Positions 8,896 through 51,262 of a stretch of 64,000 nucleotides of DNA are shown here, piece by piece (position 1 is the first letter of the stretch; every line of letters begins with the position of its first letter). Made by a program: the position numbers and the translations under genes. The DNA lies in assembly GCA_026770705.1 (NCBI GenBank), contig JANJGN010000012.1, positions 22,382,001 to 22,446,000 of the forward strand, read 5' to 3'. Source of the DNA: Isurus oxyrinchus. Lineage: Eukaryota. The notes beneath the pieces were generated by a model. That model searched no databases, was not told the DNA's origin, and was given only the letters and a program-made list of their open reading frames with translations.

Positions 8896-9209
8896 GAGTT
8901 CAGCACACACCACGGATCAAGCTTTCAGCCTTTTGTATGTCTTAGCCCTTTGTCACTGGGTTATAGAGCATGAATTCAGTATAACTGGAGTGAATCAGAT
9001 TTTTCTGATCCACTGGAACTCCCTTGTATGGACTAGCTTCTATTTAAATAGTTAATTGTTAACGTGAGTTGCCTGCACAAGAGGAATTAATTTGGCTCCT
9101 GTTTTAATTGTTTTAAACAGAAACTGCATTTGCAGGTGGGTGATGCTGAAAATTAGTTCTGTTTTGTCAATGTTTCCAACAGTGCTTTACTAATGGAGTT
9201 AACGGTCTT

Positions 9210-9640
9210 GAATTGATGCAGCAATGTAATCTCAGGACACCCCAAAGTACTTTACAACCAATGAGATACTTTTGAAGGGTGGTGAGCGTTGTGTTGTTGG
9301 CAAATGCAGCAGCTGTTTTGTGCAAAGCAAGATCCCACAAAGAGCAAATGAGATGAATGAACTAACTATTTTAGTGTTGTTGGTTGGAGGATTAGCCAGG
9401 CAATCAGGAGAACTCCCTTTCTCTGTTTTTGAATTGTGCCATGAGATCTTTTACCACCAGCTGAACAGGAAGATAGGGTCTCAATTTAGTGTCTCATCCA
9501 AGAGTTGGTAACTCCAACTAGTGCAGTCCTAACATCACCTCAGCCTTATTTATGCACTGAAATCCATTCTGAGATTATGAATGCACAGCTTTATGATCCA
9601 CAGATAAGAGTGCTGTAAACTGAATTAAGTCCCAGTGGGA
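9210..9640 (-). mobile_element. Deu-domain SINE
   Basis: 'ctcaggacacccaaagtactttacaaccaatga...gtgccatgagatcttttac' matches the other copies. Confidence 0.7.
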
Positions 9641-9699
9641 CTGGAGGCAGAGCAACAAATTTTCTTTCTCATACTCATGGCCAACCATCACAGTTGGGG

Positions 9700-12600
9700 T
9701 AACCCATTGCGAGTGACAACACATTGCAAGTGATAATGCATTGTGAGTCATAACGCATTACGAGTCATAATGCATTGTGAGTGATAATGCATTGTGAGTC
9801 ATAATGCTTTGTGAGTCATAATGCATTGCGAGTGATAGTGCATTGTGAGTGATAACGCATTGCGAGCAATAACTCATTGCGAGTGATAATGCATTGTGAA
9901 TCATAACGCTTTGTGAGTCATAACGCATTGCGAGTGATAATGCATTGTGAGTCATAATGCATTGTGAGAGAATGCATTGTGAGAGATAATGCATTGCGCA
10001 TGATAACGTATTGCGAGTGATAACACATTGTGAGTCATAACGCAATGCGAGTGATAATGCATTGTGAGTCATAACGCATTGCGAGTGATAATGCATTGTG
10101 AGTGATAACGCATTACAAGCGAAAACGCGTTGTGAGTCATAACACATTGTGAGTCATAATGCATTGCGAGTGATAATGCATTGTAGGTCATAATGCTTTG
10201 CGAGTGATAACACATTGTGAGTCATGATGCTTGTGAGTCATAACGCATTACGAGTGATAACGCATTGTGAGTCATAATGTATTGCGAGTGATAGTGCATT
10301 GCGATTGATAATGCTTTGTGAGTGATAATGCATCGTGAGTCATAATGCACTGCGAGTCATAAGGCATTGCGAGTGATAATGCATTGTGAGTCATAATGCA
10401 TTGCGAGCGATAACGCATTGTGAGTCATAATGCTTGTCAGTCATAATGCATTACGACTGATAATGCATTGCGAGTCACAATGCATTGTGAGTCATAATGC
10501 ATTGTGAGAGATAATGCATTGTGAGAGTTAATGCATTGCGTGTGATAACGTATTGCAAGCAATAACGCATTGTGAGTCATAACGCATTGCGTGTGATAAT
10601 GCATTGTGAGTCATAATGCATTGCGAGTGATAATGCATTGTGAGTGATAATACATTGTGAGTCATAATGCATGGCGAGACATGCATTGCGAGTGATAACG
10701 CATTTTGAGTCATAATGCATTGCGAGTGATAGTGCATTGCAAGTGATAATGCTTTGTGAGTGATAATGCATCGTGAGTCATAACGTATTGTGAGTCATAA
10801 GGCATTGCGAGTGATAATGCATTGTGAGTCATAACGCATTGTGAGCGATGACGCATTGTGAGTCATAATGCTTGTGAGTCATAATGCATTACGACTGATA
10901 ATGCATTGCGAGTCATAATGCATTGCGAGTCATAATGCATTGCAAGTGATAATGCACTGTGAGTCATAATGCATTGTGAGTCATAACACATTGCTAGTGA
11001 TAACGCATTGTGAGTCATAACGCATTGTGAGTGATAACGCATTGCGAGTGATAACGCATTGTGATTCATAACGCATTGCGAGTGATAATGCATTGTGAGT
11101 CATAACGCATTGCGAGTGATAATGCATTGTGAGTCATAATGTTTGTGAGGCATAACGCATTACGAGTGATAACGCATTGTGAGTCATAATACTTTGCGAG
11201 TGACAATGCATTACTAGTGGTAAGGCTTTGCGAGTCATAATGCATTGTGAGTGATAATGCATTGTGAGTCATAATGCACTGCAAGTGATAATGCATTGTG
11301 AGTGACAATGCATTGTGAGTCATAATGCATTGCGAGTCATAATGCATTGCGTTTCATAACGCGTTGCGAGTGATAATGCATTGTGAGTGATAATGCATTG
11401 TGAATCATAACGTTTTGTGAGTCATAACACATTGCGAGTGATAATGCATTGTGAGTCATAATGCTTTGTGAGTCATAATGCATTGCGAGTGATAACGCCT
11501 TGCGAGCAATAACTCATTGCGAGTGAGAATGCATTGCGAGCGATAACGTATTGCGAGTGATAACACATTGTGAGTCATAACGCTTTGAGTCATAACGCAT
11601 TGCGAGTGATAACGCATTGCGAGTCATAATGCATTGCAAGTGATAATGCATTATGAGTCCTAACTCATTGTGAGTGATAACGCATTGCGAGCGATAACGC
11701 ATTGCGAATGATAATACATTGTGAGTCATAATCCTTTGTGAGTCATAATGCATTGCGAGTGATAACGTATAGCGAGTGATAATGTATTGTGAGTCATAAC
11801 GCATTGTGAGTGATAATGCATTATGAGTCATAACGCATTGCGAGTGATAATGCATTGTGAGTCATAATGCTTGTGAGTCATAACGCATTACGAGTGATAA
11901 TGCATTGGGAGTCATAATGCATTGCAAGTGACAATGCATTGCGAGTGGTAAAGCTTTGCGAGTGATAATGCATTGCCAGTCATAATGCATTGTGAGTGAT
12001 AATGCATTGTGAGTCATAATGCATTGCGAGTCATAATGCATTGCGAATGATAACGCATTGCGAGTGATAACGCATTGTGAGTGATAACGCATTGTGTGTT
12101 ATAATGCATTATGAGTGATAACGCATTGTGAGTCATAATGCATTGCGAGTGATAACGCATTGCAAACAATAACGCTTTGTGAGTGATAATGCATTGTGAG
12201 TGATAATGCATTGCGAGCGATAACGCATTGCGAGTGATAAGGCATTGTGAGTGATAACGCATTGTGAGTCATAACGCTTTGTGAGTCATATCAATTTGCG
12301 AGTCATAATGCATTGTGAGTGATAATGCACGATGAGTGATAATGCATTGTGAGTCATAATGCATTGTGAGTCATAACGCTTTGTGAGTCATAACGCTTTG
12401 TGAGTCATAAGGCATTGCGAGTGATAATGCATTGTGAGTGACAATGCATTGTGAGTCATAATGCATTGCGAGTGATAACGCATTGCAAACAATAACGCAT
12501 TGTGAGTGATAATGCATTGTGAGCGATAACGCATTGTGAGTCATTATGCATTGTGAGTGATAACGCTTTGTGAGTCATAATGCATTGTGAGTCATAATGC

Positions 12601-15600
12601 ATTGCGAGTGATAATGCACTGTGAGTCATAATGTATTGCGAGTGATAATGCATTGTGAGTCATAATGCATTGCGAATGATAACACATTGTGAGTCATAAC
12701 ACATTGTGAGTCATAATGCTTTGTGAGTCATAATGCATTGCGAGTGATAACGCATTGCAAACAATAATGCATTGTGAGTGATAAAGCATTGTGAGTGATA
12801 ATGCATTGCGAGTGATAACGCATTGCAAGTGATAAGGCTTTGTGAGTGATAATGCATTGTGAGTCATAACGCTTTGTGCGTCATAACGCATTGCGAGTGA
12901 TAACGCATTGTGAGTGATAATGCATTGTGAGTCATAATGCGTTGCGAGTCATATCAATTTGCGAGTCAAAATGCATTGCGAGTGATAATGCACGATGGGT
13001 GATAATGCATTGTGAGTCATAATGCATTGTGAGTCATAACGTTTGTGAGTCATAACGCTTTGTGAGTCATAATGCATTGCGAGTGATAACGCATTGCAAA
13101 CAATAACGCTTTGTGAGTGATAATGCATTGTGAGTGATAATGCATTGCGAGCGATAACGCATTGCGAGTGATAAGGCATTGTGAGTGATAACGCATTGTG
13201 AGTCATAACGCTTTGTGAGTCATATCAATTTGCGAGTCATAATGCATTGTGAGTGATAATGCACGATGAGTGATAATGCATTGTGAGTCATAATGCATTG
13301 TGAGTCATAACGCTTTGTGAGTCATAACGCTTTGTGAGTCATAAGGCATTGCGAGTGATAATGCATTGTGAGTGACAATGCATTGTGAGTCATAATGCAT
13401 TGCGAGTGATAACGCATTGCAAACAATAACGCATTGTGAGTGATAATGCATTGTGAGCGATAACGCATTGTGAGTCATTATGCATTGTGAGTGATAACGC
13501 TTTGTGAGTCATAATGCATTGTGAGTCATAATGCATTGCGAGTGATAATGCACTGTGAGTCATAATGTATTGCGAGTGATAATGCATTGTGAGTCATAAT
13601 GCATTGCGAATGATAACACATTGTGAGTCATAACACATTGTGAGTCATAATGCTTTGTGAGTCATAATGCATTGCGAGTGATAACGCATTGCAAACAATA
13701 ATGCATTGTGAGTGATAAAGCATTGTGAGTGATAATGCATTGCGAGTGATAACGCATTGCAAGTGATAAGGCTTTGTGAGTGATAATGCATTGTGAGTCA
13801 TAACGCTTTGTGCGTCATAACGCATTGCGAGTGATAACGCATTGTGAGTGATAATGCATTGTGAGTCATAATGCGTTGCGAGTCATATCAATTTGCGAGT
13901 CAAAATGCATTGCGAGTGATAATGCACGATGGGTGATAATGCATTGTGAGTCATAATGCATTGTGAGTCATAACGTTTGTGAGTCATAACGCTTTGTGAG
14001 TCATAACGCATTGCGAGTGATAATGCATTGTGAGTGACAATGCATTGTGAGTGATAATGCATTGTGAGTCATAATGCATTGCGAGTCATAATGCATTACG
14101 CGTGATAACACACTGTGAGTCATAACGAATTGTGAGTCATAATGCATTGCGAGTGATAACGTATAGCGAGTGATAATGCATTGTGAGTCATAATGCATTG
14201 TGAGTGATAATGCATTGTGAGTCATAACGCATTGCGAGTGATAATGCATTGTGAGTCATAATGCTTGTGAGTCATAACGCATTACGAGTGATAATGCATT
14301 GGGAGTCATAATGCATTGCGAGTGACAATGCATTGCGAGTGGTAACGCTTTGCGAGTGATAATGCATTGCCAGTCATAATGCATTGCGAGTGATAATGCA
14401 TTGTGAGTCATAATGCATTGCGAGTCATAATGCATTGCGAATGATAACGCATTGCGAGTGATAACGCATTGTGAGTGATAACGCATTGTGTGTCATAATG
14501 CATTATGAGTGATAACGCATTGAGTCATAATGCATTGCGAGTGATAGTGTATTGTGAGTCATAATGCTTTGTGAATCATAATGCATTGCGAGCGATAACG
14601 CATTGCGAGTGATAAGGCATTGAGTGTGATAATGCATTGTGAGTCATAACGCTATGTGCGTCATAACGCATTGTGAGTGATAACGCATTGTGAGTGATAA
14701 TGCATTGTGAGTCATAACGCTTTGTGAGTCATATCAATTTGCAAGTCATAATGCATTGTGAGTGATAATGCACGATGAGTGATAATGCATTGTGAGTCAT
14801 AATGCATTGTGAGTCATAACGCTTTGTGAGTCATAACGCTTTGTGAGTCATAACGCATTGCGAGTGATAATGCATTGTGAGTCATAATGCATTGTGAGTC
14901 ATAATGCATTGCGAGTCATAATGCATTGCGAGTCATAATGCATTGTGAGTCATAATGCATTGCGAGTGATAATGCACTGAGTCATAAAGTATTGCGAGTG
15001 ATAATGCATTGTGAGTCATAATGCATTGCGAGTGATAACACATTGTGAGTCATAATGCATTGTGAGTCATAATGCTTTGTGAGTCATAATGCATTGCGAG
15101 TGATAACGCATTGCAAACAATAACGCATTGTGAGTGATAATGCATTGTGAGTGATAATGCATTGCGAGCGATAACGCATTGCGAGTGATAAGGCATTGTG
15201 AGTGATAATGCATTGTGAGTCATAACACTTTGTGCGTCATATCAATTTGTGAGTCATAATGCATTGTGAGTGATAATGCACGATGCGTGATAATGCATTG
15301 TGAGTCATAATGCATTGTGAGTCATAACGCTTTGTGAGTCATAACGCTTTCTGAGTCATAACGCATTGCGAGTGATAATGAATTGTGAGTGACAATGCAT
15401 TGTGAGTCATAGTGCATTGCGAGTCATAATGCATTGCGAGTCATAATGCACTGCACGTGATAACACATTGTGAGTCATAACGCATTGTGAGTCATAACAC
15501 ATTGTGAGTCATAATGCATGGCGAGCAATAACTCATTGCGAGTGATAATGCATTGTGAGTCATAACACTTTGTGAGTCATAATGATTTCAGAGTCATAAT

Positions 15601-18600
15601 GCATTGTGAGTGATGATGCACGATGAGTGATAATGCATTGTGAGTCATAATGTATTGTGAGTCATAACGCTTTGTGAGTCATAAAACTTTGTGAGTCATA
15701 ACGCATTGCGAGTGATAATGCATTGTGAGTGACAATGCATTGTGAGTCAATGCATTGCGAGTCATAATGAATTGCGAGTCATAATGCATTGTGAGTCATA
15801 ATGCATTGCGAGTGATAATGCATTGAGTCATAACGTATTGCGAGTGATAATGCATTGTGAATCATAATGCATTGCGAGCAATAACTCATTGCGAGTGATA
15901 ATGCATTATAAGTCATAACGCTTTGTGAGTCATAACGCATTGTGAGTAATAATGCATTGTGAGTGATAATGCATTGTGAGTGATAATGCATTGCGAGCGA
16001 TAACGCATTGCGAGTGATAACACTCTGTGAGTCATAACGTTTGTGAGTGATAATGCATTGTGAGTCATAACTCATTGTGAGTGATAACGCATTGTGAGCG
16101 ATAACGCATTGCGAGTGATAATGCATTGTGAGTCATAATCCTTTGTGAGTCATAATGCATTGCGAGTGATAATGCATTGTGAGTCATAATGCATTGTGAG
16201 TCATAATGCATTGCGAGTCATAATGCATTGCGAGTCATAATGCATTGTGAGTCGTAATGCATTGCGAGTGATAATGCACTGAGTCATAAAGTATTGCGAG
16301 TGATAATGCATTGTGAGTCATAATGCATTGCGAGTGATAACACATTGTGAGTCATAATGCATTGTGAGTCATAATGCTTTGTGAGTCATAATGCATTGCG
16401 AGTGATAACGCATTGCAAACAATAACGCATTGTGAGTGATAATGCATTGTGAGTGATAATGCATTGCGAGCGATAACGCATTGCGAGTGATAAGGCATTG
16501 TGAGTGATAATGCATTGTGAGTCATAACACTTTGTGCGTCATATCAATTTGTGAGTCATAATGCATTGTGAGTGATAATGCACGATGCGTGATAATGCAT
16601 TGTGAGTCATAATGCATTGTGAGTCATAACGCTTTGTGAGTCATAACGCTTTCTGAGTCATAATGCATTGCGAGTGATAATGAATTGTGAGTGACAATGC
16701 ATTGTGAGTCATAGTGCATTGCGAGTCATAATGCATTGCGAGTCATAATGCACTGCACGTGATAACACATTGTGAGTCATAAAGCATTGTGAGTCATAAC
16801 ACATTGTGAGTCATAATGCATGGCAAGCAATAACTCATTGCGAGTGATAATGCATTATGAGTCATAACGCTTTGGGAGTCATAACGCATTGCGCGTAATA
16901 ATGCATTGTGAGTGATAATGCGTTGTGAGTGATAATGCATGCGAGCGATAACGTATTGCGAGTGATAACGCTTTGTGAGTCATAACGCTTTGTGAGTGAT
17001 AATGCATTGTGAGTCATAATGCTTTATGAGTCATAAGGCATTGCGAGTGATAATGCATTGTGAGTCATAATGCATTGTGCGAGATAAAGAATTGTCAGAG
17101 ATAATGCATTGTGCATGATAACGTATTGCGAGCGATAACACATTGTGAGTCATAACGCAATGCGAGTGATAACGCATTGCGAGTGATAATGCATTGTAGG
17201 TCATAATGCTTTGCGAGTGATAACACATTGTGAGTCATAATGCTTGTGAGTCATAACGCATTACGAGTGATAACGCATTGTGAGTCATAATGCATTGCGA
17301 GTGATAGTGCATTGCAATTGATAATGCTTTGTGAGTGATAATGCATCATGAGTCATAACGCATTGCAAGTCATAAGGCATTGCGAGTGATAATGCATTGT
17401 GAGTCATAATGCATTGCGAGCGATAACGCATTGTGAGTCATAATGCTTGTGAGTCATAATACATTACGACTGAAAATGCATTGCGAGTCATAATGCATTG
17501 TGACTCATAATGTATTGTGAGAGATAATGCATTGTGAGAGTTAATGCATTGCATGTGATAACGTATTGCAAGCGATAATGCATTGTGAGTCATAACGCAT
17601 TGCGAGTGATAATGCATTGTGAGTGATAACGCATTATGAGTGGTAACACGTTTTGAATCATAATGCATTGCGAGTCATAATGCATTGCAAGTCATAATGC
17701 ATTGCGAGTGATAACGCATTGCGAGTGATAACGCATTGTGAGTAATAACGTATTGTGAGTCATAACGCATTGCGAGTGATAACGCATTGCGAGCAATAAC
17801 TCATTGCGAGTGATAATGCATTGAGTCATAATGCATTGTGAGAGATAATGCTTTGTGAGAGATAATGCATTGCGCATGATAACATATTGCGAGCGATAAC
17901 ACATTGTGAGTCATAACGCAATGCGAGTGATAATGCATTGCGAGCGATAACGCATTGTGAGTCATAATGCTTGTGAGTCATAATGCATTGCGAGCAATAA
18001 CGCATTGTGAGTGATAATGCATTGTGAGTCATAACGCATTGCGAGTGATAATGCATTGTGAGTCGTAATGCTTATGAGTCATAACGCATTACGAGTGATA
18101 ACGCATTGTGAGTCATAATGCATTGCGAGCGATAACGCATTGCGAGTCATAATGCATTGTGAGTCATAATGCATTGTGAGAGATAATGCATTGTGAGAGT
18201 TAATGCATTGCGTATGATAACGTATTGCGAGCGATAACGCATTGTGAGTCATAACGCATTGCGATTGATAACGCATTGTGAGTGATAATGCATTGTGATT
18301 CATAACACTTTGTGAGTCATGACGCTTTGTGAGTCATAACGCATTGCGAGTGATAATGCATTGTGAGTGATAACGCATTACGAGTGATAATGCGTTTTGA
18401 GTCATAATGCATTGCGAGTCATAAGGCATTGCGAGTCATAATGCATTGCGAGTGATAATGCATTGCGAGTGATAATGCACTGAGTCATAATGCATTATGA
18501 CTCATAACACATTGCTAGTGATAACGCATTGCGAGTCATAATGCATTACGCGTGATAACACACTGTGAGTCATAACGCATTGTGAGTGATAATGCATTGC

Positions 18601-21600
18601 GAGTGATAACGTATAGCGAGTGATAATGCATTGTGAGTCATAACGCATTGTGAGTGATAATGCATTGTGAGTCATAACGCATTGCGAGTGATAATGCATT
18701 GTGAGTCATAATGCTTGTGAGTCATAACGCATTACGAGTGATAATGCATTGGGAGTCATAATGCATTGCGAGTGACAATGCATTGCGAGTGGTAACGCTT
18801 TGCAAATGATAATGCATTGCCAGTCATAATGCATTGCGAGCTAATAATGCATTGTGAGTCATAATGCATTGCGAATCATAATGCATTGCGAATGATAACG
18901 CATTGCGAGTGATAACGCATTGTGAGTGATAACGCATTGTGTGTCATAATGCATTATGAGTGATAACCATTGTGAGTCATAATGCATTGCGAGTGATAGT
19001 GTATTGTGAGTCATAATGCTTTGTGAGTCATAATGCATCGCGAGCGATAACGCATTGCGAGTGATAAGGCATTGAGAGTGATAATGCATTGTGAGTCATA
19101 ACGCTTTGCGCGTCATAACGCATTGTGAGTGATAACGCATTGTGAGTGATAATGCATTGTGAGTCATAACGCTTTGTGAGTCATATCAATTTGCGAGTCA
19201 TAATGCATTGTGAGTGATAATGCACGATGAGTGATAATGCATTGTGAGTCATAATGCATTGTGAGTCATAACGCTTTGTGAGTCATAACGCTATGTGAGT
19301 CATAACGCTTTGTGAGTCCTAACGCATTGCGAGTGATAATGCATTGTGAGTCATAATGCATTGTGAGTCATAATGCATTGCGAGTCATAATGCATTGCGA
19401 GTCATAATGCATTGTGAGTCATAATGCATTGCGAGTGATAATGCACTGAGTCATAAAGTATTGCGAGTGATAATGCATTGTGAGTCATAATGCATTGCGA
19501 GTGATAACACATTGTGAGTCATAATGCATTGTGAGTCATAATGCTTTGTGAGTCATAATGCATTGCAAGTGATAACGCATTGCAAACAATAACGCATTGT
19601 GAGTGATAATGCATTGTGAGTGATAATGCATTGCGAGCGATAACGCATTGCGAGTGATAAGGCATTGTGAGTGATAATGCATTGTGAGTCATAACACTTT
19701 GTGCGTCATATCAATTTGCGAGTCATAATGCATTGTGAGTGATAATGCACGATGCGTGATAACGCTTTGTGAGTCATAACGCATTGCGCGTAATAATGCA
19801 TTGTGAGTGATAATGCGTTGTGAGTGATAATGCATGCGAGCGATAATGCATTGCAAGTGATAACGCTTTGTGAGTCATAACGCTTTGTGAGTGATAATGC
19901 ATTGTGAGTCATAATGCTTTATGAATCATAACGCATTGCGAGTGATAATGCATTGTGAGTCATAACGCTTTGTGAGTCATAATGCATTGCGAGTGATAAT
20001 GCATTGTGAGTGATAATGCATTGCGAGCGATAACGCATTGCGAGTGATAACACTTTGTGAGTCATAACGCTTTGTGAGTGATAATGCATTGTGAGTCATA
20101 ATGCTTTGTGAGTCATAACGCATTGGAAGTGATAACGCATTGCGAGCAATAACTCATTGCGAGTGATAATGCATTGTGAGTCATAATGCATTGCGAGTCA
20201 TAAAGCATTGCGAGTGATAATGCATCGTGAGTCATAACGCATTGTGAGTGATAATGCATTGTGAGTCATAACGCATTGCGAGTGATAATGCATTGTGAGT
20301 CATAATGCTTGGGAGTCATAACGCATTATGAGTCATAATGCATTGTGAATCATAATGCATTGCGAGTGACAATGCATTGCGAGTGGTAACGCTTTGCGAG
20401 TGATAATGCATTGCCAGTCATAATGCATTGCGAGTGATAATGCATTGTGAGTCATAATGCATTGCGAGTGATAACGCATTGCGAGTGATAACGCATTGTG
20501 AGTCATAATGCATTGCGAGTGATAACGCATTGCGAGTAATACAGCATTGTGAGTCATAATGCTTTGTGAGTCATAATGCATTGCGAGTGATAACACATTC
20601 TGAACAATAACGCATTGTGAGTAATAACACAGTGAGTGATAATGCATTGCGAGAGATAACGTATTGCGAGTGATAACGCATTGTGAGTGATAATGCATTG
20701 TGAGTCATAACGCTTTGTGAGTCATAATGATTTCAGAGTCATAATGCATTGTGAGTGATGATGCACGATGAGTGATAATGCATTGTGAGTCATAATGTAT
20801 TGTGAGTCATAACGCTTTGTGAGTCATAAAACTTTGTGAGTCATAACGCATTGCGAGTGATAATGCATTGTGAGTGACAATGCATTGTGAGTCAATGCAT
20901 TGCGAGTCATAATGAATTGCGAGTCATAATGCATTGTGAGTCATAATGCATTGCGAGTGATAATGCATTGAGTCATAACGTATTGCGAGTGATAATGCAT
21001 TGTGAGTCATAATGCATTGCGAGCAATAACTCATTGCGAGTGATAATGCATTATAAGTCATAACGCTTTGTGAGTCATAACACATTGTGAGTAATAATGC
21101 ATTGTGAGTGATAATGCATTGTGAGTGATAATGCATTGCGAGCGATAACGCATTGCGAGTGATAACACTCTGTGAGTCATAACGTTTGTGAGTGATAATG
21201 CATTGTGAGTCATAACTCATTGTGAGTGATAACGCATTGTGAGCGATAACGCATTGCGAGTGATAATGCATTGTGAGTCATAATCCTTTGTGAGTCATAA
21301 TGCATTGCGAGTGATAATGCATTGCGAGCGATAATGCATTGCGAGTGATAACACTTTGTGAGTCATAACGCTTTGTGAGTGATAATGCATTGTGAGTCAT
21401 AATGCTTTGTGAGTCATAACGCATTGCGAGTGATAACGCATTGCGAGCAATGATTCATTGCGAGTGATAATGCAATGTGAGTCATAACGCTTTGTGAGTC
21501 ATAACGCATAGCGAGTGATAACACTTTGTGAGTCATAACGCTTTGTGAGTGATAATGCATTGTGAGTCATAATGCTTTGTGAGTCATAACGCATTGTGAG

Positions 21601-24600
21601 TGATAACGCATTGCGAGCAATAACTCATTGCGAGTGATAATGCATTGTGAGTCTAAAAGCATTGCGAGTCATAACGCATTGCGAGTTATAATGCATTGTG
21701 AGGCATAACACATTGCAAGTGATAACGCATTGCGAGTGATAATGCATTGTGAGTCATAACTCATTGTGAGTGATAACGCATTGTGAGTGATAACGCATTG
21801 CGAGTGATAATGCATTGTGAGTCATAATCCTTTGCGAGTCATAATGCATTGCAAGTGATAATGCATCGTGAGTCATAATGCATTGAGAGTGATAACGCAT
21901 TGTGAGCAATAACTCATTGCGAGTGATAATGCATTGTGAGTCATAACGCTTTGTGAGTCATAACACATTGCGAGTGATAATGCATTGTGGGTCATAATGC
22001 ATTGTGAGAGATAATGCATTGTGAGAGATAATGCATTGCGCATGATAACATATTGCGAGCGATAACACATTGTGAGTCATAACGCAATGCGAGTGATAAT
22101 GCATTGCGAATGATAATGCATTGTGAGTCATAACGCTTTGTGAGTCATAAGGCTTTGTGAGTCATAACGCATTGCGAGTGATAATGCATTGTGAGTCATA
22201 ATGCATTGCGAGCGATAACGCATTGTGAGTCATAATGCTTGTGAGTCATAATGCATTACGACTGATAATGCATTGCGAGTCATAATGCATTGTGAGTCAT
22301 AATGCATTGTGAGAGATAATGCATTGTGAGAGTTAATGCATTGCGTGTGATAACGCATTGCGAGTGATAATGTATTGTGAGTCATAATCCTTTGTGAGTC
22401 ATAATGCATTGCGGGTGATAATGCATAGCGAGTGATAACGCATTGTGTCATAATGTATTATGAGTGATAAGGCATTGTGAGTCATAATGCATTGCGAGTG
22501 ATAGTGCATTGTGAGTGATAACGCATTGCGAATAATAATGCATTGTGAGTCATAATGCTTTGTGAGTCATAATGCATTGCGAGTGATAACGCATTGCGAA
22601 CAATAACGCATTGTGAGTGATAATGCATTGTGAGTGATAATGCATTGTGAGCGATAACGCATTGCGAGTGATAAGGCTTTGTGAGCGATAATGCATTGTG
22701 AGTCATAACACTTTGTGCGTCATAACGCATTGCAAGTGATAATGCATTGTGAGTGATAATGCATTGTGAGTCATAACGCTTTGTGAGTCATATCGACTTG
22801 CGAGTCATAATGCATTGTGAGTGATAATGCACGATGAGTGATAATGCATTGTGAGTCATAACGCTTTCTGAGTCATAACGCTTTGTGCGTCATAAAGCAT
22901 TGCGAGTGATAATGCATTGTGAGTGACAATGCATTGTGAGTCATAATGCATTGTGAGTCATAATGCATTGCGAGTCATAATGCATTGTGAGTCTTAGTGC
23001 ATTTCGAGTGATAATGAATTGTGAGTCATAATGTATTGCGAGTGATAACTCATTGCGAGTGATAATGCATTATGAGTCATAACGCTTTGTGAGTCATAAC
23101 GCTTTGTGAGTGATAATGCATTGTGAGTCATAATGCTTTGTGAGTCATAACGCATTGCGAGTGATAACGCATTGCGAGTCATAACGCATTGCGAGTTATA
23201 ATGCATTGTGAGGCATAACACATTGCAAGTGATAACGCATTGCAAGTGATAATGCATTGTGAGTCATAATGCATTGCGAGTGATAACGCATTGCGAGTGA
23301 TAACGCATTGTGTGTCATAATGCATTATGAGTGATAACGCATTGTGAGTCATAATGCATTGCGAGTGATAATGCATTGCGAGTAATAATGCATTGTGAGT
23401 CATAATGCTTTGTGAGTCATAATGCATTGCGAGTGATAACGCATTGCAAACAATAACGCATTGTGAGTGATAATGCATTGTGAGTGATAATGCATTGCGA
23501 GCAATAACGCATTGCGAGTGATAACGCATTGTGAGTGATAATGCATTGTGAGTCATAACGCTTTGTGAGTCATAACGCATTGCGAGTGATAACGCATTGT
23601 GAGTGATAATGCATTGTGAGTCATAACACTTTGTGAGTCATAACGATTTCAGAGTCATACTGCATTGTGAGTGATAATGCACGATGAGCGATAATGCATT
23701 GGGAGTCATAATGCATTGTGAGTCATAACGCTTTGTGAGTCATAATGCTTTGTGAGTCATAACGCATTGCGAGTGATAATGCATTGTAAGTGACAATGAA
23801 TTGTGAGTCATAATGCATTGCGAGTCATAATGCATTGCGAGTGATAATGCATTGAGTCATAATGCATTGCGAGTGATAATGCATTGTGAGTCATAATACA
23901 TTGCGAGTGATAACACATTGTGAGTCATATCCCATTGTGAGTCATAACGCATTGCAAGTGATAATGCATTGTGAGTGATAATGCATTGTAAGTGATAATG
24001 CATTGCGAGCAATAACATATTGCGAGTGATAACGCATTGTGAATCATAACGTTTTGTGAGTCATAACGCATTGAGAGTGATAACGCATTCTGTGTGATAA
24101 TGCATTGTGAGCGATAACGCATTGCGAGTGATATCACATTGTGAGTCATAACACTTTGAGTCATAACGCATTGCGAGTGATAATGCATTGCGAGTCATAA
24201 CGCATTGCGAGTGATAATGCATTGTGAGTCATAACTCATTGTGAGTGATAACGCATTGTGATAACGCATTGCAAGTGATAATGCATTGTGAGTCATAATC
24301 CTTTGTGAGTCATAACGCATTGTGAGTGATAATGCATTGTGAGTCATAACGCATTGAGACTCATAATGCATTGTGAGTCATAATGCTTGTGAGTCATAAC
24401 GCATTATGAGTCATAATGCATTGTGAGTCATAATGCATTGCCTGTGACAATGCATTGCGAGTGGTAACGCTTGGCGAGTGATAATGCATTGCCAGTCATA
24501 ATGCATTGCGAGTGATAATGTATTGTGAGTCATAATGCATTGTGAGTGATAACGCATTGCGAGTGATAATGCATTGCGAGTAATAATGCATTGTGAGTCA

Positions 24601-27600
24601 TAATGCTTTGTGAGTGATAATGCATTACGAGTGATAATGCATTGTGAGTCATAATGCATTGCGAGTGATAACGCATTGCGAGTGATAATGCATTGCCAGT
24701 CATATTGCATTGCGAGTGATAATGCATTGTGAGTCATAATGCATTGCGAGTGATAACGCATTGCGAGTGATAACGCATTGTGTGTCATAATGCATTATGA
24801 GAGATAACGCATTGTGAGTCATAATGCATTGCGAGTGATAACGCATTGCGAGTAATAATGCATTGTGAGTCATAATGCTTTGTGAGTCATAATGCATTGC
24901 GAGAGATAACGCATTGTGAGTGATAACGCATTGTGAGTGATAATGCATTGTGAGTCATAACGCTTTGTGAGTCATAACGCATTGTGAGTGATAACGCATT
25001 GTGAGTGATAATGCATTGTGAGTCATAACGCTTTGTGAGTCATAATGATTTCAGAGTCATAATGCATTGTGAGTGATAATGCACGATGAGTGATAATGCA
25101 TTGTGAGTCATAATGCATTGTGAGTCATAACGCTTTGTGAGTCATAACGCTTTGTGAGTCATAACGCATTGCGAGTGATAATGCATTGTGAGTGACAATG
25201 CATTGTGAGTCACAATGCATTGCGAGTCATAATGAATTGCGAGTCATAATGCATTGTGAGTCATAATGTATTGCAAATGATAATGCATTGTGAGTCATAA
25301 TGTATTGCGAGTGATAATGCATTGTGAGTCATAATGCATTGCGAGCAATAACCCATTGCGAGTGAGAATGCATTGTGAGTCATAACGCTTTGAGTCATTA
25401 CGCATTGCGAGTGATAATGCATTGTGAGTCATAATGCATTACGAGTGATAATGCATTGTGAGTCATAATGCATTGCAAGTGATAATGCATTATAAGTCAT
25501 AATGCATTGCGAGTCATAACGCATTGCGAGTTATAATGCATTGTGAGGCATAACGCATTGCGAGTGATAACGCATTGCGAGTGATAATGCATTGTGAGTC
25601 ATAACTCATTGTGAGTGATAACGCATTGTGAGTGATAACGCATTGCGAGTGATAATGCATTGTGAGTCATAATCCTTTGTGAGTCATAATGCATTGCGAG
25701 TGATAATGCATCGTGAGTCATAACGCATTGTGAGTGATAATGCATTGTGAGTCATAACACATTGCGAGTGATAATGCATTGTGAGTCATAATGCTTATGA
25801 GTCATAATGCATTATGAGTCATAATCCTTTGTGAGTCATAATGCATTGCGAGTGACAATGCATTGCGAGTGGTAATGCTTTGCGAGTGATAATGCATTGT
25901 GAGTCATAATGCATTGCGAGTGATCATGCATTGTGAGTCCTAATGCATTGCGAGTGATAATGCATTGCGAGTGACAACGCATTGTGTGTCATAATGCATT
26001 ATGAGTGATAACACATTGTGAGTCATAATGCATTGCGAGTGATAACGCATTGCGAGTAATAATGCATTGTAAGTCATAATGCTTTGAGAGTCATAATGCA
26101 TTGCAAGTGATAACGCATTCCGAACAATAACGCATTGTGAGTGATAACGCATTGTGAGTGATAACGCATTGTGAGTCATAATGCATTGTGAGTCATAACG
26201 CTTTGTGATCATAACGCTTTGTGAGTCATAACGCATTGCGAGTGATAATGCATTGTGAGTCATAATGCATTGCGAGTCATAATGCATTGCGAGTCATAAC
26301 GCGTTGTGAGTCATAATGCATTGCAAGTGATAATGCATTGTGAGTGACAATGCATTGTGAATCATAATGCATTGCGAGTCATAATGCATTGCGAGTCATA
26401 ACACGTTGCGAGTGATAATGCATTGTGAGTGATAATGCATTGTAAGTGATAATGCATTGTGAGCGATAACTCATTGCGAGTGATAACGCATTGTGAATCA
26501 TAACGTTTTGTGAGTCATAACGCATTGCGAGTGATAATGCATTGTGAGTGATCCCTCCTTGCGAGAAATAACACATTGTGAGTGAGAATGCATTGTGAGT
26601 CATAAAGCTTTGTGCGTCATAACGCATTGTGAGTGATAACGCATTCTGTGTGATAATGCATTGTGAGCGATAATGCATTGTGAGTGATAACACATTGTGA
26701 GTCATAACGCTTTGAGTCATTACGCATTGCGAGTGATAACGCATTGTGAGTCATAATGCATTGCAAGTGATAATGCATTATAAGTCATAACGCATTGCGA
26801 GTCATAATGCATTGCGTGTGATAATGCATTATAAGTCATAATGCATTGAGAGTCATAATCCTTTGTGAGTCATAATGCATTGCGAGTGATAATGCATTGT
26901 GAGTCATAACACATTGTGAGTGATAATGCATTGTGAGTCATAACGCATTGCGAGTGATAATGCATTGTGAGTCATAATGCTTGTGAGTCATAACGCATTA
27001 CGAGTGATAATGCATTGTGAGTCATAACGCATTGCGAGTGACAATGCATTGCGAGTGGTAACACTTTGCGAGTGATAATGCATTGCCAGTCATAATGCAT
27101 TGCGAGTGATAATGTATTGTGAGTCATAATGCATTACGAGTGATAACGCATTGCAAGTGATAACGCATTGCAAGTGATAACGCATTGTGTGTCATAAATC
27201 ATTATGAGTGATAACGCATTGTGAGTCATAATGCATTGCGAGTGATAGTGCATTGTGCGTGATAATGCATTGCGAGCGATAATGCATTGCGAGTGATAAC
27301 GCATTGAGTGATAATGCGTTGTGAGTCGTAACGCTTTGTGAGTCATAACGCATTGCGAGCGATAACGCATTGTGAGTCATAACGCTTTGTGAGTCATAAC
27401 GATTTCAGAGTCATGATGCATTGTGAGTGATAATGCACGATGAGTCATAACGCTTTGTGAGTCATAACGCATTGCGAGTGATAATGCATTGTGAGTGACA
27501 ATGCATTGTGAGTCATAATGCATTGCGAGTCATAATGCATTGAGTCATAATGCATTGCGAGTCATAACGCATTGCGAGTTATAATGCATTGTGAGGCATA

Positions 27601-28208
27601 ACACATTGCAAGTGATAACGCATTGCAAGTGATAATGCATTGTGAGTCATAATGCATTGCAAGTGATAATGCATTGTGAGTCATAACGCATTGCGAGTGA
27701 TAACACATTGTGAGTCATTACGCTTTGTGAGTGATAATGCATTGTGAGTCATAATGCTTTGTGAGTCATAACGCATTGCGAGTGATAACGCATTGCGAGC
27801 AATAACTCATTGCGAGTGATAATGCATTGTGAGTCATAACGCTTTGTGAGTCATAACGCATTGCGAGTGATAATGCATTGTGAGTCATAACGCTTTGTGA
27901 GTCATAACGCATTGCGAGTGATAATGCATTGTGAGTCATAATGCATTGTGAGAGATTTTGCATTGTGAGTCATAATGTATTGCGAGTGATAATGCATTGT
28001 GAGTCATAATGCATTGTGAGAGATTTTGCATTGTGAGTCATAATGTATTGCGAGTGATAACACATTGTGAGTCATAACGCATTGTGAGTCATAACGCATT
28101 GTGAGTCATAATGCATTGCGAGCAATAACTCATTGCGAGTGATAATGCATTATGAGTCATAACACATTACGAGTGATAATGTATTGTGAGTGATAATGCA
28201 TTGTGAGT
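9700..28208. repeat. 17-bp tandem satellite/minisatellite array, consensus AAYGCATTGYGAGTSAT, roughly 1,090 units
   Basis: Continuous visible 17-bp periodicity over ~18.5 kb with occasional 15-16 bp units; unit count estimated as length/17. Confidence 0.98.
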
Positions 28209-28410
28209 AACAGCAGAGTAATAAAGACTAGATGATCTGTTTTTAATGTCAGTTGAGGGATAAATACTGTCCAGGACATCAGGGAGAAGTTCCCTGATCT
28301 TCTTCAAAATAGTGCCATCGGATCTTTTAACTTCACTTGGGACGGAGTCTGTGTCTAACGATTCATCTGAGACAGCACCTCCAATAGTGCAGCACCTCCT
28401 CAGTACAGAT
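28209..28410 (-). mobile_element. Deu-domain SINE fragment abutting the array
   Basis: 'aacagca...atctgttttt...gttgagggataaatactgtccaggaca...cttcttcaaaatagtgccatcggatctttt'. Confidence 0.75.
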
Positions 28411-28869
28411 ATGTCACTTATGAGTTTTGTTGCGACTGTTTACCCAAGGCAGCAACTGCGAGACATCACAGGCTGGAAAGTACATTGCAGAGGGATAAAG
28501 AATTGAAAACCTTACCCCCGCAGCTTGGGATGGACAATAAATGTTGGCCTTGCCAGTGATGCCCACATCCTCAGAATTAATTTTTTTATTAAATTACATC
28601 TCAGTAGGATCATCTGCTTCTTTTCCAGACTGTAGTGTGTATGCCTCTTCACATGTTCTTTGCAGGGAACATGTCTTAAGAACGTTACTGGCAGAACACA
28701 AGCTGTAGTCTGTGTTTGGTGATAACAACACATAGCAATCTGTCCTCTATTGTTCATGGGGAACATTGCTTAAGCTACTTCCCTCTGACACACTTCTCTC
28801 TCAGCCCAAATAAGATTGCAAGTGGCAAGAAACCTCAAACAAGAGGGCCAATGGGATTCAGGATTGCAT

Positions 28870-37600: not shown

Positions 37601-37919
37601 TTGCTCTCTCGCCTTTGGTTCAGAAGGTCATGGGTTCAAATCCAACTCCAGTGGCAGAGTTTTCAGTTCGGCAGGCGGGCAGTGTTGGCAGGCCTGGGAT
37701 CGGCCGGGAAACGGACCACCACCCACAATCGGCCCCCGACTGCGATTTCACGCCGGCGGGTCAATTGAAGGCCTGCCCAGCGTGAAACGAGGCTCCTCGC
37801 TGGTCGAGATGGCTAGACGGGGTCCTGTTGGCCTCCAGATGCAATGGTGACCTGGCCTAGGCAGCCCCTTGAAGGCTGCCACAGAAGAACGTCCGTTCTG
37901 TGCCTTCAGCATTCAAGTT

Positions 37920-39738
37920 ATGGAGTCGGATGAAGCTGGAGACACCAGGCGGGAGGGCAGGTTGGGTGGGCATTCAGCTGCCCGCTTTTTGGATGAGTGC
38001 CTCGTGGTCTTCCTGGAGGAGGTGGCTGCCAGGAGGGACACACTTGTTCCTGGAGCTGGGAGAAGGAAGACACTGCACCTCACCAAGAGGGATGGGAGGA
38101 GGTTGCAGCGCTGGTTAGCAGCCATGATGTGGCGTGGCACACATGGGTGCAGTGCCGGAAGAGGTTCAATGAACTGCTGCACAGAGGAAGGGTGAGTACC
38201 GTGTTGGCATGGGTCAGTACAGAAGGCACGGCCATCCCCCCACCCCCCGTAGAGCTCAGGGGTGTTAGAGCCTGAGTGCCAACTGTCAATGATGCCAGAG
38301 CTGGCCAAGGGGGTGAGCCCAGCTGCTTGGACAGAGTGTCTTGCGGCTCGAGGGCCACGACTGGGATGTGCCCTGTGAGGTGCTCCTCAGCTGGGGTTGA
38401 CCAGGCTGCAATGGTGTTGCAGGTAGAGAGTGGACTAATCAATGCTCCTCTGTCCTTCCAGGAGAAGCCATAACCAATCAGAGAGGCCACATACAGGCGG
38501 AGGCCCTGCCCAACCTACTGCTGCTGACCTGGTTTGAGCAGGACGCCCTTGAGCTGGAGAGCTGGCCACTCCACGAGCAACCGAGCATGGAGAGGCGGGG
38601 GTGCCAGAGGTGATAGTTTCGGATTGGACAGCCATTCTAGTGTAGTCTCTTTATTGATGGGATCCTCAAACCTGGAGTCCCCATTGATCACTGAAAGACA
38701 ATGGCACCATGATGCAGATCTCCATTGTCTCACCAGGGTGCCTGGCATGCACGGTGACAGTGTGGTGACTTTAACTAAAGGCATGTCCTTCTTCTCCCTT
38801 ACATTCGCCAGCACACACTCACTCTCTGGAGCCCCAAAAGGCCACCCCAAACACTGGAGGACCACGGGGCTTCATTTGCACCTACGTCACACCCACTCTC
38901 TGAACCAGGCACTAGCGCAGATACCAGCACCTCGGTGGGCATTAGATTGGCAGCTAGAATGCAGGTGCACATCGGTGAGGGCACTTCACACTCGCATGAG
39001 GTGCAGGTGGAGGCAGTGAGTGCCCAGGGTGCCAGTATGCAGAGAACTGCTGGGAACCAGGACGATGCTGATTCTAAGGCAGATAATGAGCCTCTGGAAT
39101 CATCCATTAGGTGGCAGATGCGGGATATGTGGGAGGATCTGGCGGATATTCATGAGGATCTGCATGTCATGGTCTCCATTGTGGAGGAGTCCATGGGGAG
39201 CATAATCACTGCATTGACCCTCACGGCTGAGTGCAATGCCTCCTCCATTGAGAAAGTGGTGATTCTCATGGAGAAGCAGTACCAGGAACAGAATCAGGGG
39301 TCCCTGGGATTACGCCTGGACCTGCAAACCCTCACGCAATTGGTCAGTGCCAGTATGGGAGATGGATAAGGCACCCAGTATCCCAGCTAGGGGCCCGTCC
39401 ATCAATGGTGAGCAGGGAGGTCCAGAGCAGCCTCGTATTGGCACACAAGATGTTTGTCGTCTCTGTGGCCTCCTCTCAGGGCACTCTGCATGATGGCAGC
39501 AGCTCCTCCGCCCCTCCACCAGTGACCGTGGCATCTGATGAGACTGTAATGACTGGGGAAATGCCAGCCATGGCATCCCATGGAGGGGCCAGCACAGGCT
39601 CCAATGGCCAGAGGATAATCACCAAGGTCATCAAGGCCATCAAGACGCCAGAGTAAACAGGCAGTCTCCAATGCCGGTGCCAGCGAGCAGGGAGCGCCTA
39701 GGTGCAGCACTCGGGAACATAAGTTAAAGGCACCATGA
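37920..39738 (+). pseudogene. Harbinger Myb/SANT-like (trihelix) DNA-binding protein gene, spliced and frameshifted
   Basis: ARF.DE.L..FLEEV..RRD.L, a frameshift, then W.EVA..VS......TW.QCRKRFNEL. Predicted intron 38192-38461 (GTGAGT...ccttccAG); coiled-coil-like acidic ORF at 38935-39369. The 3' end is approximate. Confidence 0.8.
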
Positions 39739-40071
39739 ACACAAGAGGGACGGTTCACGGGTGATTTTCTGTCCATTTATGTTTGGTTTATTTGTCTGCT
39801 GGTGTAGACATCAGCACCAGTAATGGTAATGTCATTATGCTTTCAATGTGACAATAGCATTAAATTTGCTTTGGTTCTGATGGTCTGAGTATGCTTCACC
39901 TTTTTGTTTTATTGGTGCAGGGTACACCAGTGTGTAATGCCAGACGTGAATGGCTGGATACTTTATTGCACAGGCATTGAGTGGACTTTGGGTGCAAATA
40001 AAAGAGTCATTTCAGACATCCAGGATGGTGGCGGCAGCCCTGGCATGAGGTAGAACCAGATATTTGGCAGC

Positions 40072-41283
40072 CTAGCTGAAGGAGTGTTGGATCAAAGTGT
40101 CCCTGGTGTCCCTGCCTCCCTGGAGGTTACCGAGGTCTGCCTCCACATCCTCATTATTCTCCTCACCGTGCTCCTCTTCTGACTCACCACTGGATTCATC
40201 ATCTGTAGCCTGTGCAGCTGTGTCAAGATCCTCATCCTCCAGTGGGTGCCCCCTTGCCAGTGCCAGATTGGAGATCGCAGCATGCAGTCACTATCAGTGA
40301 CTCCCTCTCTAGGGGGTATTGCCGCTGAACGGTCCAGGCATCAGAAGCGCATCTTGAAAAGACCTATGTTCCTCTCTATCACCGCCGTTGTTGAGGCATG
40401 ACTCCTCTTTTAACGCTGCTCTGCTCTGCCTCTGTTCTTGTGTGGCGGAGAGGTGTCATGAGCCTCCACTTCCATAGATAGCCCTTGTCACCCAGCAGCC
40501 ATCTATCCAGTCGGGCTGGAGCACTGAAGATCCTCGGCACCTGGGAGTGTCTCAGGATGTAAGCATCATGGGAGCTACCTGAGTACCTTGCACAGACTTG
40601 CAGAATCTGCATCCTGTGATCACACACTATTTGCACATTCATAGAATGGAATCCCTTCCTGTTGACCTGCTGGTGCCTTGATGGCCACATGTGTGTAGTC
40701 GATGGCACCCTGGACACGGGGGAACCAACAATCGCTGCAAAGCCTCTGGCTCGCTCAGCCTGGCTGGCCTCATCCATATGGTAAAGAACAGAGGTCACTA
40801 CCTGCCTGAACAGAGCTTCTGTCACCTGCTTGACGCAAGTGTGGACAGCTGATTGGGAGACCCCACACAGATCCCCCACTGACCCCTGGAAAGAGCTGGA
40901 GGCATAGAAGTTGAGGGCCACTGTGACCTTCAGAGCCACTGGCATGGAATGTCCACCCACACAGCCAGAGCTGATCTCAGGCCCAATCATCTGACAAATG
41001 GAGGTCACTGTCTCTCTTGAGAGGTGGAGCCTCCTTCGGCATTGTACCTCAGACATATTGAGGTAGCTGCATCGCCACCTGTAAACCCTGGCAGCAGGAT
41101 GGTGGGGTCTTCTTTGGCCCTCCTACCTTGGACTTCCTGCTGGCCTGTGCCCTTTGTGCCTGCACCTTTCCTCCCTTAGTTTCCTCCCCTGGAAGCTGCT
41201 TTGGGACCCGAGGCCTCCTCTCCCTTCTGCCCCTCTCTTCCTCCTCAGAGGAGGTGCCTCCAGCGGAGGACCACAATCCCCAT
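40072..41283 (-). pseudogene. Harbinger/HARBI1-like DDE transposase, frameshifted with stops
   Basis: GAID.TH (shifted frame), NRKGFHSMNVQIVCD, GSSHDAYIL, WLLGDKGY, IERNIG.FKMRF*, C-terminal RDTLIQHSFS*. Longest remaining ORF is 40379-41056. Confidence 0.92.
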
Positions 41284-50026: not shown

Positions 50027-50224
50027 ATAAGTTCATTGGTTAGTAAGAAACTGGTGTTAAAGAGTGTCTCTTGAATAGCTGTAAATTAGAAAAACATATT
50101 ATTTTGAAAGAAGTAGCATGTTGGAGGAACTCTAGGAATAAGGGGAAGTCAGGACCAGTAACATAAAGAAGTATAAGTAAACTAAAGTAAAATAAAGTTA
50201 ACGCAAGGGAAGTAAAGTTAAGAC

Positions 50225-51144: not shown

Positions 51145-51262
51145 TTTGGCAGGGAACCAGGAGAGAATATTTGAGAGTAATACCAAGGTGCACAAAAGAT
51201 ACAGATAGCACTCAGAAAGAGAATGGTAAGTTAACGGGCAGAGTCAGAATAAGAGAGAAAAT

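What the first reader, a model, noticed from the sequence alone, without database searches (positions are those of the whole stretch)
9700..28208. 18.5 kb array whose 17-bp unit is two abutting palindromes
Seen: the common unit AATGCATT-GTGAGTCAT matches its own rotated reverse complement at 14/17 positions, and two of the three mismatches would be G-T wobbles in a hairpin. The array therefore has dyad axes about every 8.5 bp. I see no transposon insertion inside it although the flanks are TE-saturated. Inference: a young or actively homogenised array able to form hairpins or cruciforms, or long dsRNA if transcribed. I do not recognise it as a described satellite.
Basis: partly seen in the sequence, partly recalled or inferred. 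Interest (0 to 1): 0.7.

Follow-up and report, generated by a model that had tools for sequence, protein, structure and literature searches.

The report
Old giant single-site shark minisatellite
This 18,500-letter stretch of what is likely shark DNA is about 1,100 varied copies of a 17-letter unit at one site that a second species also carries, and because only about one copy in seven holds both palindromes it is most likely an ordinary large minisatellite rather than a hairpin-forming element with a job.

Summary
The array is real: 9,705-28,208, period 17, 1,092 whole units, 81% alike, no insertion. The 14/17 self-symmetry holds only for the commonest unit (158 of 1,092; 1.3% of shuffles reach it). 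Both palindromes occur in 164 units, neither in 411, and the longest perfect arm is 13 bp. Single strands fold better than permuted arrays (predicted), but far worse than the duplex. The locus is not young: both junctions lie in a second species whose flanks differ by about 1.8%. It is turning over rather than homogenised: 0.1-1.3 kb blocks are re-copied at 0.1-6% divergence, the edges are old, and CpGs are decaying. It is single-site. A likely sister array on C31 reached the same size without these palindromes, and five of six other array families sampled have no perfect dyads. The lack of insertions is close to expectation for DNA this recently re-copied. Verdict: a new member of a known kind, of low interest. 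The scan had not noted this array before, only other minisatellites in this genome.

The parts
9705..28208 (+). 17-bp minisatellite array, 1,092 whole units; main polymorphisms T/C at unit positions 3 and 10 and C/G at 15; 380 TGAGTCA (AP-1 consensus, name recalled) and 473 AATGCATT; CpG o/e 1.23
12120..14004 (+). tandem block duplication of 55 units (934 bp), 99.9% identical, with a 947-bp exact match; very recent, or an assembly duplicate
14869..16865 (+). 41-unit block at 14,869-15,563 copied 1,302 bp downstream (99.3%)
15547..21315 (+). 37-unit block at 15,547-16,170 copied to 20,692-21,315 (99.5%); non-adjacent copy
14090..19760 (+). blocks at 14,090-15,291 copied to 18,540-19,760 (97.6-99.2%); non-adjacent copy
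9207..9453 (.). old SINE-like interspersed repeat left of the array (aligned part; it continues towards about 9,630 by eye)
   Evidence: (deep cover); family type recalled
28209..28420 (.). truncated SINE-like copy abutting the last unit; the first 155 nt of the family majority sequence are missing on the array side
   Evidence: 36 hits in 464 kb; mean identity 75% among the 27 copies that reach the junction side
9317..9738 (+). left junction, bridged by contigs of organism B (X5, X8, X15; 34 array bases)
   Evidence: table 8
28172..28329 (+). right junction, bridged by contigs of organism A (X1) and organism B (X5, X15; 37 array bases)
   Evidence: table 8

Best explanation
It is an old, single-site, very large minisatellite of varied 17-bp units whose interior carries recently re-copied blocks, likely made by out-of-register recombination or repair, and whose palindromes are likely a by-product that at most nudges slippage. 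Shown: position, unit spectrum, block copies, old edges, presence of both junctions in a second species, CpG-decay pattern. Inferred: a 17-bp seed was duplicated before the two species split. Misaligned sister or homologous chromatids then copy blocks of 6-56 units, both next door (unequal exchange) and at a distance (conversion-like repair). This keeps the interior young, leaves the edges frozen, and leaves little time for insertions. Germline methylation erodes the CpG-bearing variants. The array is likely neutral, methylated DNA between a lectican gene's second exon and the next gene.
For: Variant-repeat anatomy: 261 distinct pieces, 81% mean identity, no fixed higher-order period. 118 duplicated blocks scored; the best five are 28-56 units at 97.6-99.9%. 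454 of 1,092 units lie in a 12-unit block with a partner at 2% or less and 804 at 5% or less; with unit order shuffled the best match anywhere is 6-7%. Edges sit at 8-10% and much of the 11.7-16.8 kb interior at 0-2.5%. Single locus: 203 of 203 genome matches to a 28-mer pattern and 451 of 458 to a 16-mer lie in the array. Old locus: orthologous pieces differ at 26 of 1,429 (X5), 25 of 1,449 (X15) and 15 of 816 bases (X8), against 1 of 1,365 for organism A (X1). CpG decay: G4>A in 68 of 403 units after C versus 5 of 616 after T, and the contrast holds after collapsing repeated contexts. These palindromes are not needed for size: a likely sister array of 18.85 kb on C31 lacks both of them (5.6 versus 25.7 perfect arms per kb), and 5 of 6 other families sampled have none, one of them spanning about 90 kb. 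No palindrome-perfecting: 7 of 1,092 units reach 16/17, and perfecting changes are rarer where the hairpin could form (G9>A 12 of 378 versus 53 of 714). No ORF above 152 aa and no Rfam hit.
Against: Single-strand folding exceeds the null: top strand -24.4 kcal/mol per 8 units, with 0 of 150 column-permuted arrays reaching it (bottom strand: 8% do); both strands summed, 3 of 120. The C31 array also folds better than its null (5 of 120), so it is not a structure-free control. The array has survived at its site through the species split and is CpG-rich (o/e 1.23 versus 0.3 in the flanks), which neutrality allows but does not predict. It holds 20.6 AP-1 motifs per kb against 64 in 400 kb nearby. 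The comparison arrays were found by similarity, not drawn at random. Unit counts are not independent events. Length variation between alleles and methylation were not measured.
Confidence: 0.75

Rival explanations
1. Hairpins formed in transiently single-stranded DNA are the main reason this array became and stays so large (MSY1-like structure-driven instability).
For: 25.7 perfect arms of 7 bp or more per kb versus 1.7 in the flanks. Folding above permuted arrays. Units are nearly all full length (1,045 of 1,094), a feature read as hairpin-related at MSY1 (PMC2599865, passages). Imperfect hairpins drive triplet expansions (PMC12708500, passages).
Against: Equal or larger arrays exist with no perfect dyads. 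The two half-palindromes co-occur exactly as independence predicts (164 versus 161.7). There is no template-switch perfecting. The mutation units seen are 0.1-1.3 kb blocks, not the single units that small hairpins would slip. One 141-nt test window chosen for holding a 12-bp arm scored z = -1.8 only.
Confidence: 0.12
2. The array is a homotypic AP-1 cluster that acts as a silenced or signal-inducible enhancer of the neighbouring lectican (likely neurocan) gene.
For: 380 TGAGTCA sites spread evenly, 35-47 per 2 kb; 0.3% of shuffled units hold the motif. It lies 75 kb upstream of the lectican signal-peptide exon and 58 kb upstream of the next gene start. Both motif-bearing and motif-free units occur in organism B (table 5c). 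Precedents: MORC3-restricted tandem repeats with AP-1, SPI or SP/KLF clusters of up to 61 motifs (PMC13373173, abstract and one section) and the LTR10 AP-1 VNTR (PMC466953, passages).
Against: There is no motif-specific constraint: T10-C15 units have fewer changes than T10-G15 units inside the motif (2.7% versus 5.1%) and, by the same factor, outside it (3.7% versus 6.6%). About two thirds of units lack the site. CpG decay points to germline methylation. The sister array has no such sites. In PMC13373173 only two of the MORC3-restricted repeats regulated neighbouring genes, and both were SPI clusters. Many motifs could have been found in some 17-mer.
Confidence: 0.07
3. It is a dyad-rich satellite with a structural role (centromere-like cruciform DNA) or a source of long double-stranded RNA.
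For: Short dyads are enriched at many centromeres (PMC5889037, passages). A + strand transcript is predicted to fold well (-136 versus -92 kcal/mol per 340 nt in the flanks).
Against: It is one 18.5-kb site, 22.4 Mb into a 147-Mb contig among genes, about 0.0004% of the assembly. Extrusion would trade -178 for -43 kcal/mol per 136 bp. The longest uninterrupted RNA helix is 9-17 bp on the + strand, and - strand folding equals the flanks.
Confidence: 0.03
4. The locus is real but its assembled length or inner order is partly an assembly error (for example the 947-bp exact repeat).
For: An exact 947-bp tandem copy; no read or contig spanning the array could be examined.
Against: Both junctions are in public contigs of two organisms. 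Most block copies carry point differences, and the same assembly holds a roughly 90-kb array, so 18.5 kb is not a ceiling.
Confidence: 0.03

Closest known systems
Hypervariable autosomal minisatellites with variant repeats (MVR loci; PMC2674676, passages)
   Same: Unit in the 7-100 bp range, head to tail, interspersed variant units, block duplications, single locus.
   Different: About 1,100 units and 18.5 kb, well above the 'up to 100 units' given for minisatellites in PMC6947457 (passages); AT-leaning (39% GC); allele-length variation not tested.
Human MSY1 (DYF155S1) minisatellite (PMC2599865, passages)
   Same: Short unit predicted to form a hairpin, base-substitution variants, near-invariant unit length, gene-conversion repair proposed.
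   Different: MSY1 is haploid, has a 25-bp unit, is 75% A+T and has variants in simple blocks. This array has intermingled variants, and only 15% of its units hold both palindromes.
MORC3-restricted tandem repeats with homotypic motif clusters (PMC13373173) and the LTR10 AP-1 VNTR (PMC466953)
   Same: Tandem unit carrying an AP-1 motif, giving a very dense homotypic cluster.
   Different: 380 motifs here against up to 61 and up to 33. No binding, accessibility or enhancer data, no motif-specific constraint, and it is not inside an LTR.
Dyad-rich centromeric satellites (PMC5889037, passages)
   Same: Dyads shorter than 10 bp and predicted single-strand folding.
   Different: A single interstitial 18.5-kb locus among genes, not an abundant centromeric family.

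Membership tests
Minisatellite / VNTR with variant repeats | Head-to-tail unit of about 7-100 bp | tested here: met
   period 17, 0% indels
Minisatellite / VNTR with variant repeats | Interspersed variant units and block duplications | tested here: met
   261 distinct pieces; 118 duplicated blocks
Minisatellite / VNTR with variant repeats | Locus-specific array in unique or euchromatic surroundings | tested here: met
   203 of 203 and 451 of 458 pattern matches lie in this array; genes on both sides
Minisatellite / VNTR with variant repeats | Copy number varies between alleles | not testable with these tools
   only short-read contigs were offered; no spanning reads
Classical satellite DNA family | Abundant, long or multi-locus arrays of one unit | tested here: not met
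   18.5 kb of 4.98 Gb at one site; the nearest relative (C31) shares no unit sequence
Dyad-rich centromeric satellite | Short dyad symmetries above background | tested here: met
   25.7 versus 1.7 perfect arms per kb
Dyad-rich centromeric satellite | CENP-A occupancy at a centromere | not testable with these tools
   no chromatin data; size and gene-flanked position argue against
Tandem-repeat enhancer (MORC3-repressed or LTR10 type) | Homotypic transcription-factor motif cluster | tested here: met
   380 TGAGTCA, 20.6 TGASTCA per kb
Tandem-repeat enhancer (MORC3-repressed or LTR10 type) | Factor binding, accessibility and regulation of a target gene | not testable with these tools
   no chromatin or reporter data; indirect test for motif constraint was negative
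Transposon-derived minisatellite | Unit matches part of the element in which the array sits | tested here: inconclusive
   the array abuts a truncated SINE-like copy and shares a 9-bp word near the junction, but 11-95% of shuffled units score as well, and the left flank does not continue the element (shuffle fraction 0.24)

The most novel reading that the evidence does not exclude
A 380-site AP-1 cluster, about six times the largest homotypic clusters reported for repressed tandem-repeat enhancers, has been held in place since before two shark species split upstream of neurocan, and works as a methylation-silenced, injury- or signal-inducible enhancer whose strength is tuned by block duplication.
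Probability: 0.07. Interest if true: 0.65.

Novelty: new member of a known kind. Interest (0 to 1): 0.22.

Why it matters
As read here it matters little: one more large minisatellite in a genome that has many. It is a usable natural test case. The locus is old while its interior turns over, so long reads from two species would measure tandem-repeat turnover in a slowly mutating lineage. With its C31 sister, it offers a matched pair for asking whether unit palindromy changes array instability. If the AP-1 cluster were functional, it would be the largest repeat-built enhancer among those in the papers I read and would tie repeat turnover to control of a brain matrix gene.

Tried and rejected
Coding array or hidden micro-exons: rejected. 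The longest stop-to-stop frame inside is 152 aa; two array frames gave only sub-cutoff DUF4334 hits. Structured RNA: 0 Rfam matches in the window. Fixed higher-order repeat: none; identity is flat over lags 1-30. Expression: no RNA holder listed; this says nothing either way. Sixteen organism-B runs held 11-17% of the array's words; I laid only three of them (X5, X8, X15) and only on the junctions, so the shares themselves are not used as evidence. Summed contig depth over the edge units is high in all four runs but is not a copy number and was not used. The stretch near 28,424-28,507 had no cover in any run, which proves nothing. X8's right junction and a bridging left junction for X1 (its contig ends 16 bases into the array) were not among the listed pieces. 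SINE origin of the unit: not significant. Palindrome-perfecting by template switching: not seen. Selection on AP-1 sites: not seen. Host-gene exons inside the window: none among 110 plus 10 frames scanned, but short exons can be missed, and the lectican's non-coding first exon was not located, so intron versus intergenic is open. The C23 hit is an unrelated TC/CA-rich repeat. The arrays found share only a short ACACTG-type core with C31 and are treated as unrelated controls. Paper searches for a described shark repeat of this kind (listings only) and look-ups of earlier notes found nothing; Dfam and Repbase were not available.
Full report
Observation. TRF gives one array at 9,705-28,208, period 17, 1,092.6 copies, 81% matches, 0% indels. 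A wrap-around alignment parsed 1,094 pieces (1,092 whole units plus two ends), 261 distinct, 1,045 of them 17 bp, with a single inserted base and no foreign DNA. Three positions are near 50:50 (T/C at 3, T/C at 10, C/G at 15). It matches its rotated reverse complement at 14/17, which 1.28% of 200,000 shuffles reach: real but modest. The next commonest unit scores 8/17 and the mean at that axis is 10.5/17. Both palindromes are intact in 164 of 1,092 units, against 161.7 expected if independent; neither is intact in 411; the modal unit never runs more than twice. The two 'wobbles' are one G-T pair counted twice, and the 8.5-bp spacing is arithmetic.

Structure potential (all predicted). Perfect inverted arms of 7 bp or more (loop up to 12, nested counts) number 475 in the array and 79 in 45.5 kb of flank; the longest is 13 bp. 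With DNA parameters, 41 eight-unit windows fold at -24.4 (top) and -18.7 kcal/mol (bottom). Column-permuted arrays average -11.4; 0 of 150 reach the top-strand value and 8% reach the bottom. Flank windows average -13.8. The duplex is -177.7 against -43.1 for both hairpins. Summing strands, 3 of 120 permutations reach the real value. As RNA, + strand 340-nt windows fold at -136 against -92 in 22 flank windows, and - strand windows at -87; the longest uninterrupted helix is 9-17 bp on + and 8-15 bp on - (21 windows each). So small hairpins in exposed single strands are plausible. Cruciforms, which need supercoiling (PMC12708500, passages), and long dsRNA are not indicated.

Turnover. There is no fixed higher-order period, but 118 duplicated blocks were scored: a 934-bp tandem copy at 99.9%, a 1,302-bp offset copy at 99.3%, and non-adjacent copies 4.5-5.1 kb apart at 97.6-99.5%. 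454 units (42%) lie in 12-unit blocks with a partner at 2% or less and 804 (74%) at 5% or less; five shuffles of unit order gave best matches of 6-7%. The edges are at 8-10% and much of the 11.7-16.8 kb interior at 0-2.5%. Adjacent copies fit unequal exchange and distant ones fit conversion-like repair (inference; such repair is proposed for MSY1, MS32 and CEB1 in PMC2599865, passages). The array is CpG-rich (o/e 1.23; flanks 0.34 and 0.29), and G>A changes are far commoner after C: 68 of 403 versus 5 of 616 at position 4, and 49 of 426 versus 11 of 632 at position 11. The contrast persists in 831 distinct three-unit contexts, the expected mark of germline methylation (inference). Changes that would perfect the palindrome are not enriched: G9>A 12 of 378 and T17>C 1 of 378 beside an intact TGAGTCA, versus 53 and 24 of 714 elsewhere; five control positions are about equal, while A6 is changed more often beside TGAGTCA (113 of 378 versus 73 of 714). 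These counts are not independent events.

Copy number and age. All 17 genome matches to a 34-mer and all 203 to a degenerate 28-mer lie in the array; 451 of 458 matches to a 16-mer do. Public contigs of a second organism (B; runs X5, X8, X15, three studies) run from the left flank 34 bases into the array, and those of X5 and X15 cross the right junction with 37 array bases. Orthologous pieces differ at 26 of 1,429, 15 of 816 and 25 of 1,449 bases (about 1.8%), against 1 of 1,365 for X1 of organism A, which may be the assembly's own sample. Contigs of X8 and X15 loop from the last unit back into the array through both C15 and G15 units (table 5c), so the variant repertoire is shared. Borrowing the epaulette-shark rate of 7e-10 per generation (CI 1.4-14.1e-10; PMC10587355, passages) gives about 1e7 generations (6e6-6e7). 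That is a rough inference from another lineage, but the locus is not young. Much of its interior is younger than the split.

Insertions. 44% of flank bases hit 400 kb of neighbouring DNA, but mostly as old copies; the SINE-like family averages 75% identity. Segments 92% or more identical to another locus number 14 in 445.5 kb, so 0.6 are expected in 18.5 kb; at 90% the figure is 33 (1.4) and at 85% it is 73 (3.0) (lower bounds from a small database, and some are tandem 69-mers). Zero insertions in DNA re-copied at 0-10% divergence is therefore unremarkable.

Relatives and controls. A DNA search found an 18.85-kb array on C31 (24,028,152-24,047,004; about 1,147 units of 16-17 bp). Its commonest unit differs at 3 of 17 positions from this array's second commonest unit; 26 of 100,000 shuffles reach 13/17 and 2 reach 14/17. 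No unit sequence is shared, mean cross identity is 62% and the flanks are unrelated, so common origin is likely, not shown. A pattern common to both gave 337 matches, 336 of them in these two arrays. The C31 array has no AP-1 sites in 10 kb, 5.6 perfect arms per kb and unit dyad scores at chance level (p 0.19-0.78), though its strands still fold above their null (5 of 120). Six further array families (periods 15-22 bp and a compound one) were sampled. Five have no perfect arm of 7 bp, including one whose hits span about 90 kb on C11; one (C10, 18 bp) has 22.3 per kb. They were found by similarity, not at random. Of 25 TRF rows of period 8 or more in the neighbouring 400 kb, none of the 15 given a p-value had a significant dyad. 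Thus large minisatellites are common in this genome, form without dyads, and dyad-rich ones occur more than once.

Setting. The array is 22.4 Mb into a 147-Mb contig. Among 150 of 384 long non-repeat frames scanned, the left side gave a V-set and two Xlink exons on the - strand; the Xlink exon's best PDB match is aggrecan. A signal-peptide exon with acceptor and donor lies at L031:4,872-4,943, 75 kb from the array. To the right, an ATG-bearing CpG-rich first exon starts at L040:2,530 on +, 58 kb away, followed by ankyrin exons on -, then Ank plus LEM, abhydrolase, L34 and Jiraiya domains. From recalled human gene order this is NCAN, NR2C2AP, RFXANK, ANKLE1, ABHD8, MRPL34 and TMEM221; these names come from no call. 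That the genome is a shark's rests on earlier AI notes and my recall of its repeats. The right end of the array abuts a SINE-like copy lacking its first 155 nt in this orientation, but the unit's match to that element is not significant; transposon-born minisatellites are well known (PMC6947457, passages).

AP-1 cluster. TGAGTCA occurs 380 times, 35-47 per 2 kb, against 64 TGASTCA in 400 kb nearby. Tandem repeats with such clusters can be repressed enhancers (PMC13373173, abstract and section 13; PMC466953, passages). The indirect test for selection was negative: units of the motif-bearing type are better conserved by the same factor inside and outside the motif. This remains the most novel reading not excluded, at about 7%.

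Verdict. An old, single-locus, unusually long variant-repeat minisatellite with ongoing block turnover; palindromy is partial and likely incidental. Hairpin-forming minisatellites (MSY1) and dyad-rich satellites (PMC5889037, passages) are known. I found no description of this repeat in four paper searches (listings only) or in earlier notes; Dfam and Repbase could not be searched. No supplementary files were read, and none is known to bear on a claim. New member of a known kind; interest 0.22.

Noticed in passing
G000:C31:24,028,152-24,047,004 (L058:8152 to L060:7004): Likely sister array, 18.85 kb, about 1,147 units of 16-17 bp, 13-14/17 like this array's unit, without its palindromes or AP-1 sites; unrelated flanks.
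   Followed up: partly
L070 (G000:C10:14,894,001-14,904,000): 18-bp minisatellite filling the 10 kb fetched, with 22 perfect inverted arms per kb, as dyad-rich as the array studied.
   Followed up: partly
L064, L065 (G000:C11:about 133,275,500-133,365,700): Compound 8/21/45-bp repeat array whose hits span about 90 kb, with no perfect dyads.
   Followed up: partly
L066, L067 (G000:C696 and C597): 15-bp satellite on two small contigs, filling both 10-kb stretches, with hits over much larger spans; a candidate abundant family.
   Followed up: no
L063:5388-7455 (G000:C14): 19-bp minisatellite whose flanks read like the two sides of an interspersed repeat (by eye, recalled as a LINE), a possible clear case of a transposon-born array.
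   Followed up: no
L035, L046, L050, L055, L056, L058: The same 69-bp tandem unit recurs at many loci in short arrays (3-24 copies), 79-98% alike: a dispersed minisatellite family.
   Followed up: no
L040:2719-3499: 43-bp minisatellite (18 copies) just inside the first intron of the + strand gene that starts at L040:2,530.
   Followed up: no
window 37,650-41,800: GC-rich element with a DDE_Tnp_4 transposase remnant on the - strand (40,382-41,122), likely Harbinger-type (recalled).
   Followed up: partly
window 49,500-53,650: Near-full decayed LINE on the + strand with GDSL-esterase-like (50,848-51,141) and RVT_1 (52,478-52,693) remnants.
   Followed up: partly
L051:7980-9999 to L052:1848: Element with ZCCHC3-like RNA-binding domains, a zinc knuckle, an endonuclease and a 465-aa open reverse-transcriptase frame: a fairly intact LINE.
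   Followed up: no
L033:3808-8276 and L030:1478-1806: TG-rich minisatellites of 34-38 bp upstream of and within the lectican gene.
   Followed up: no
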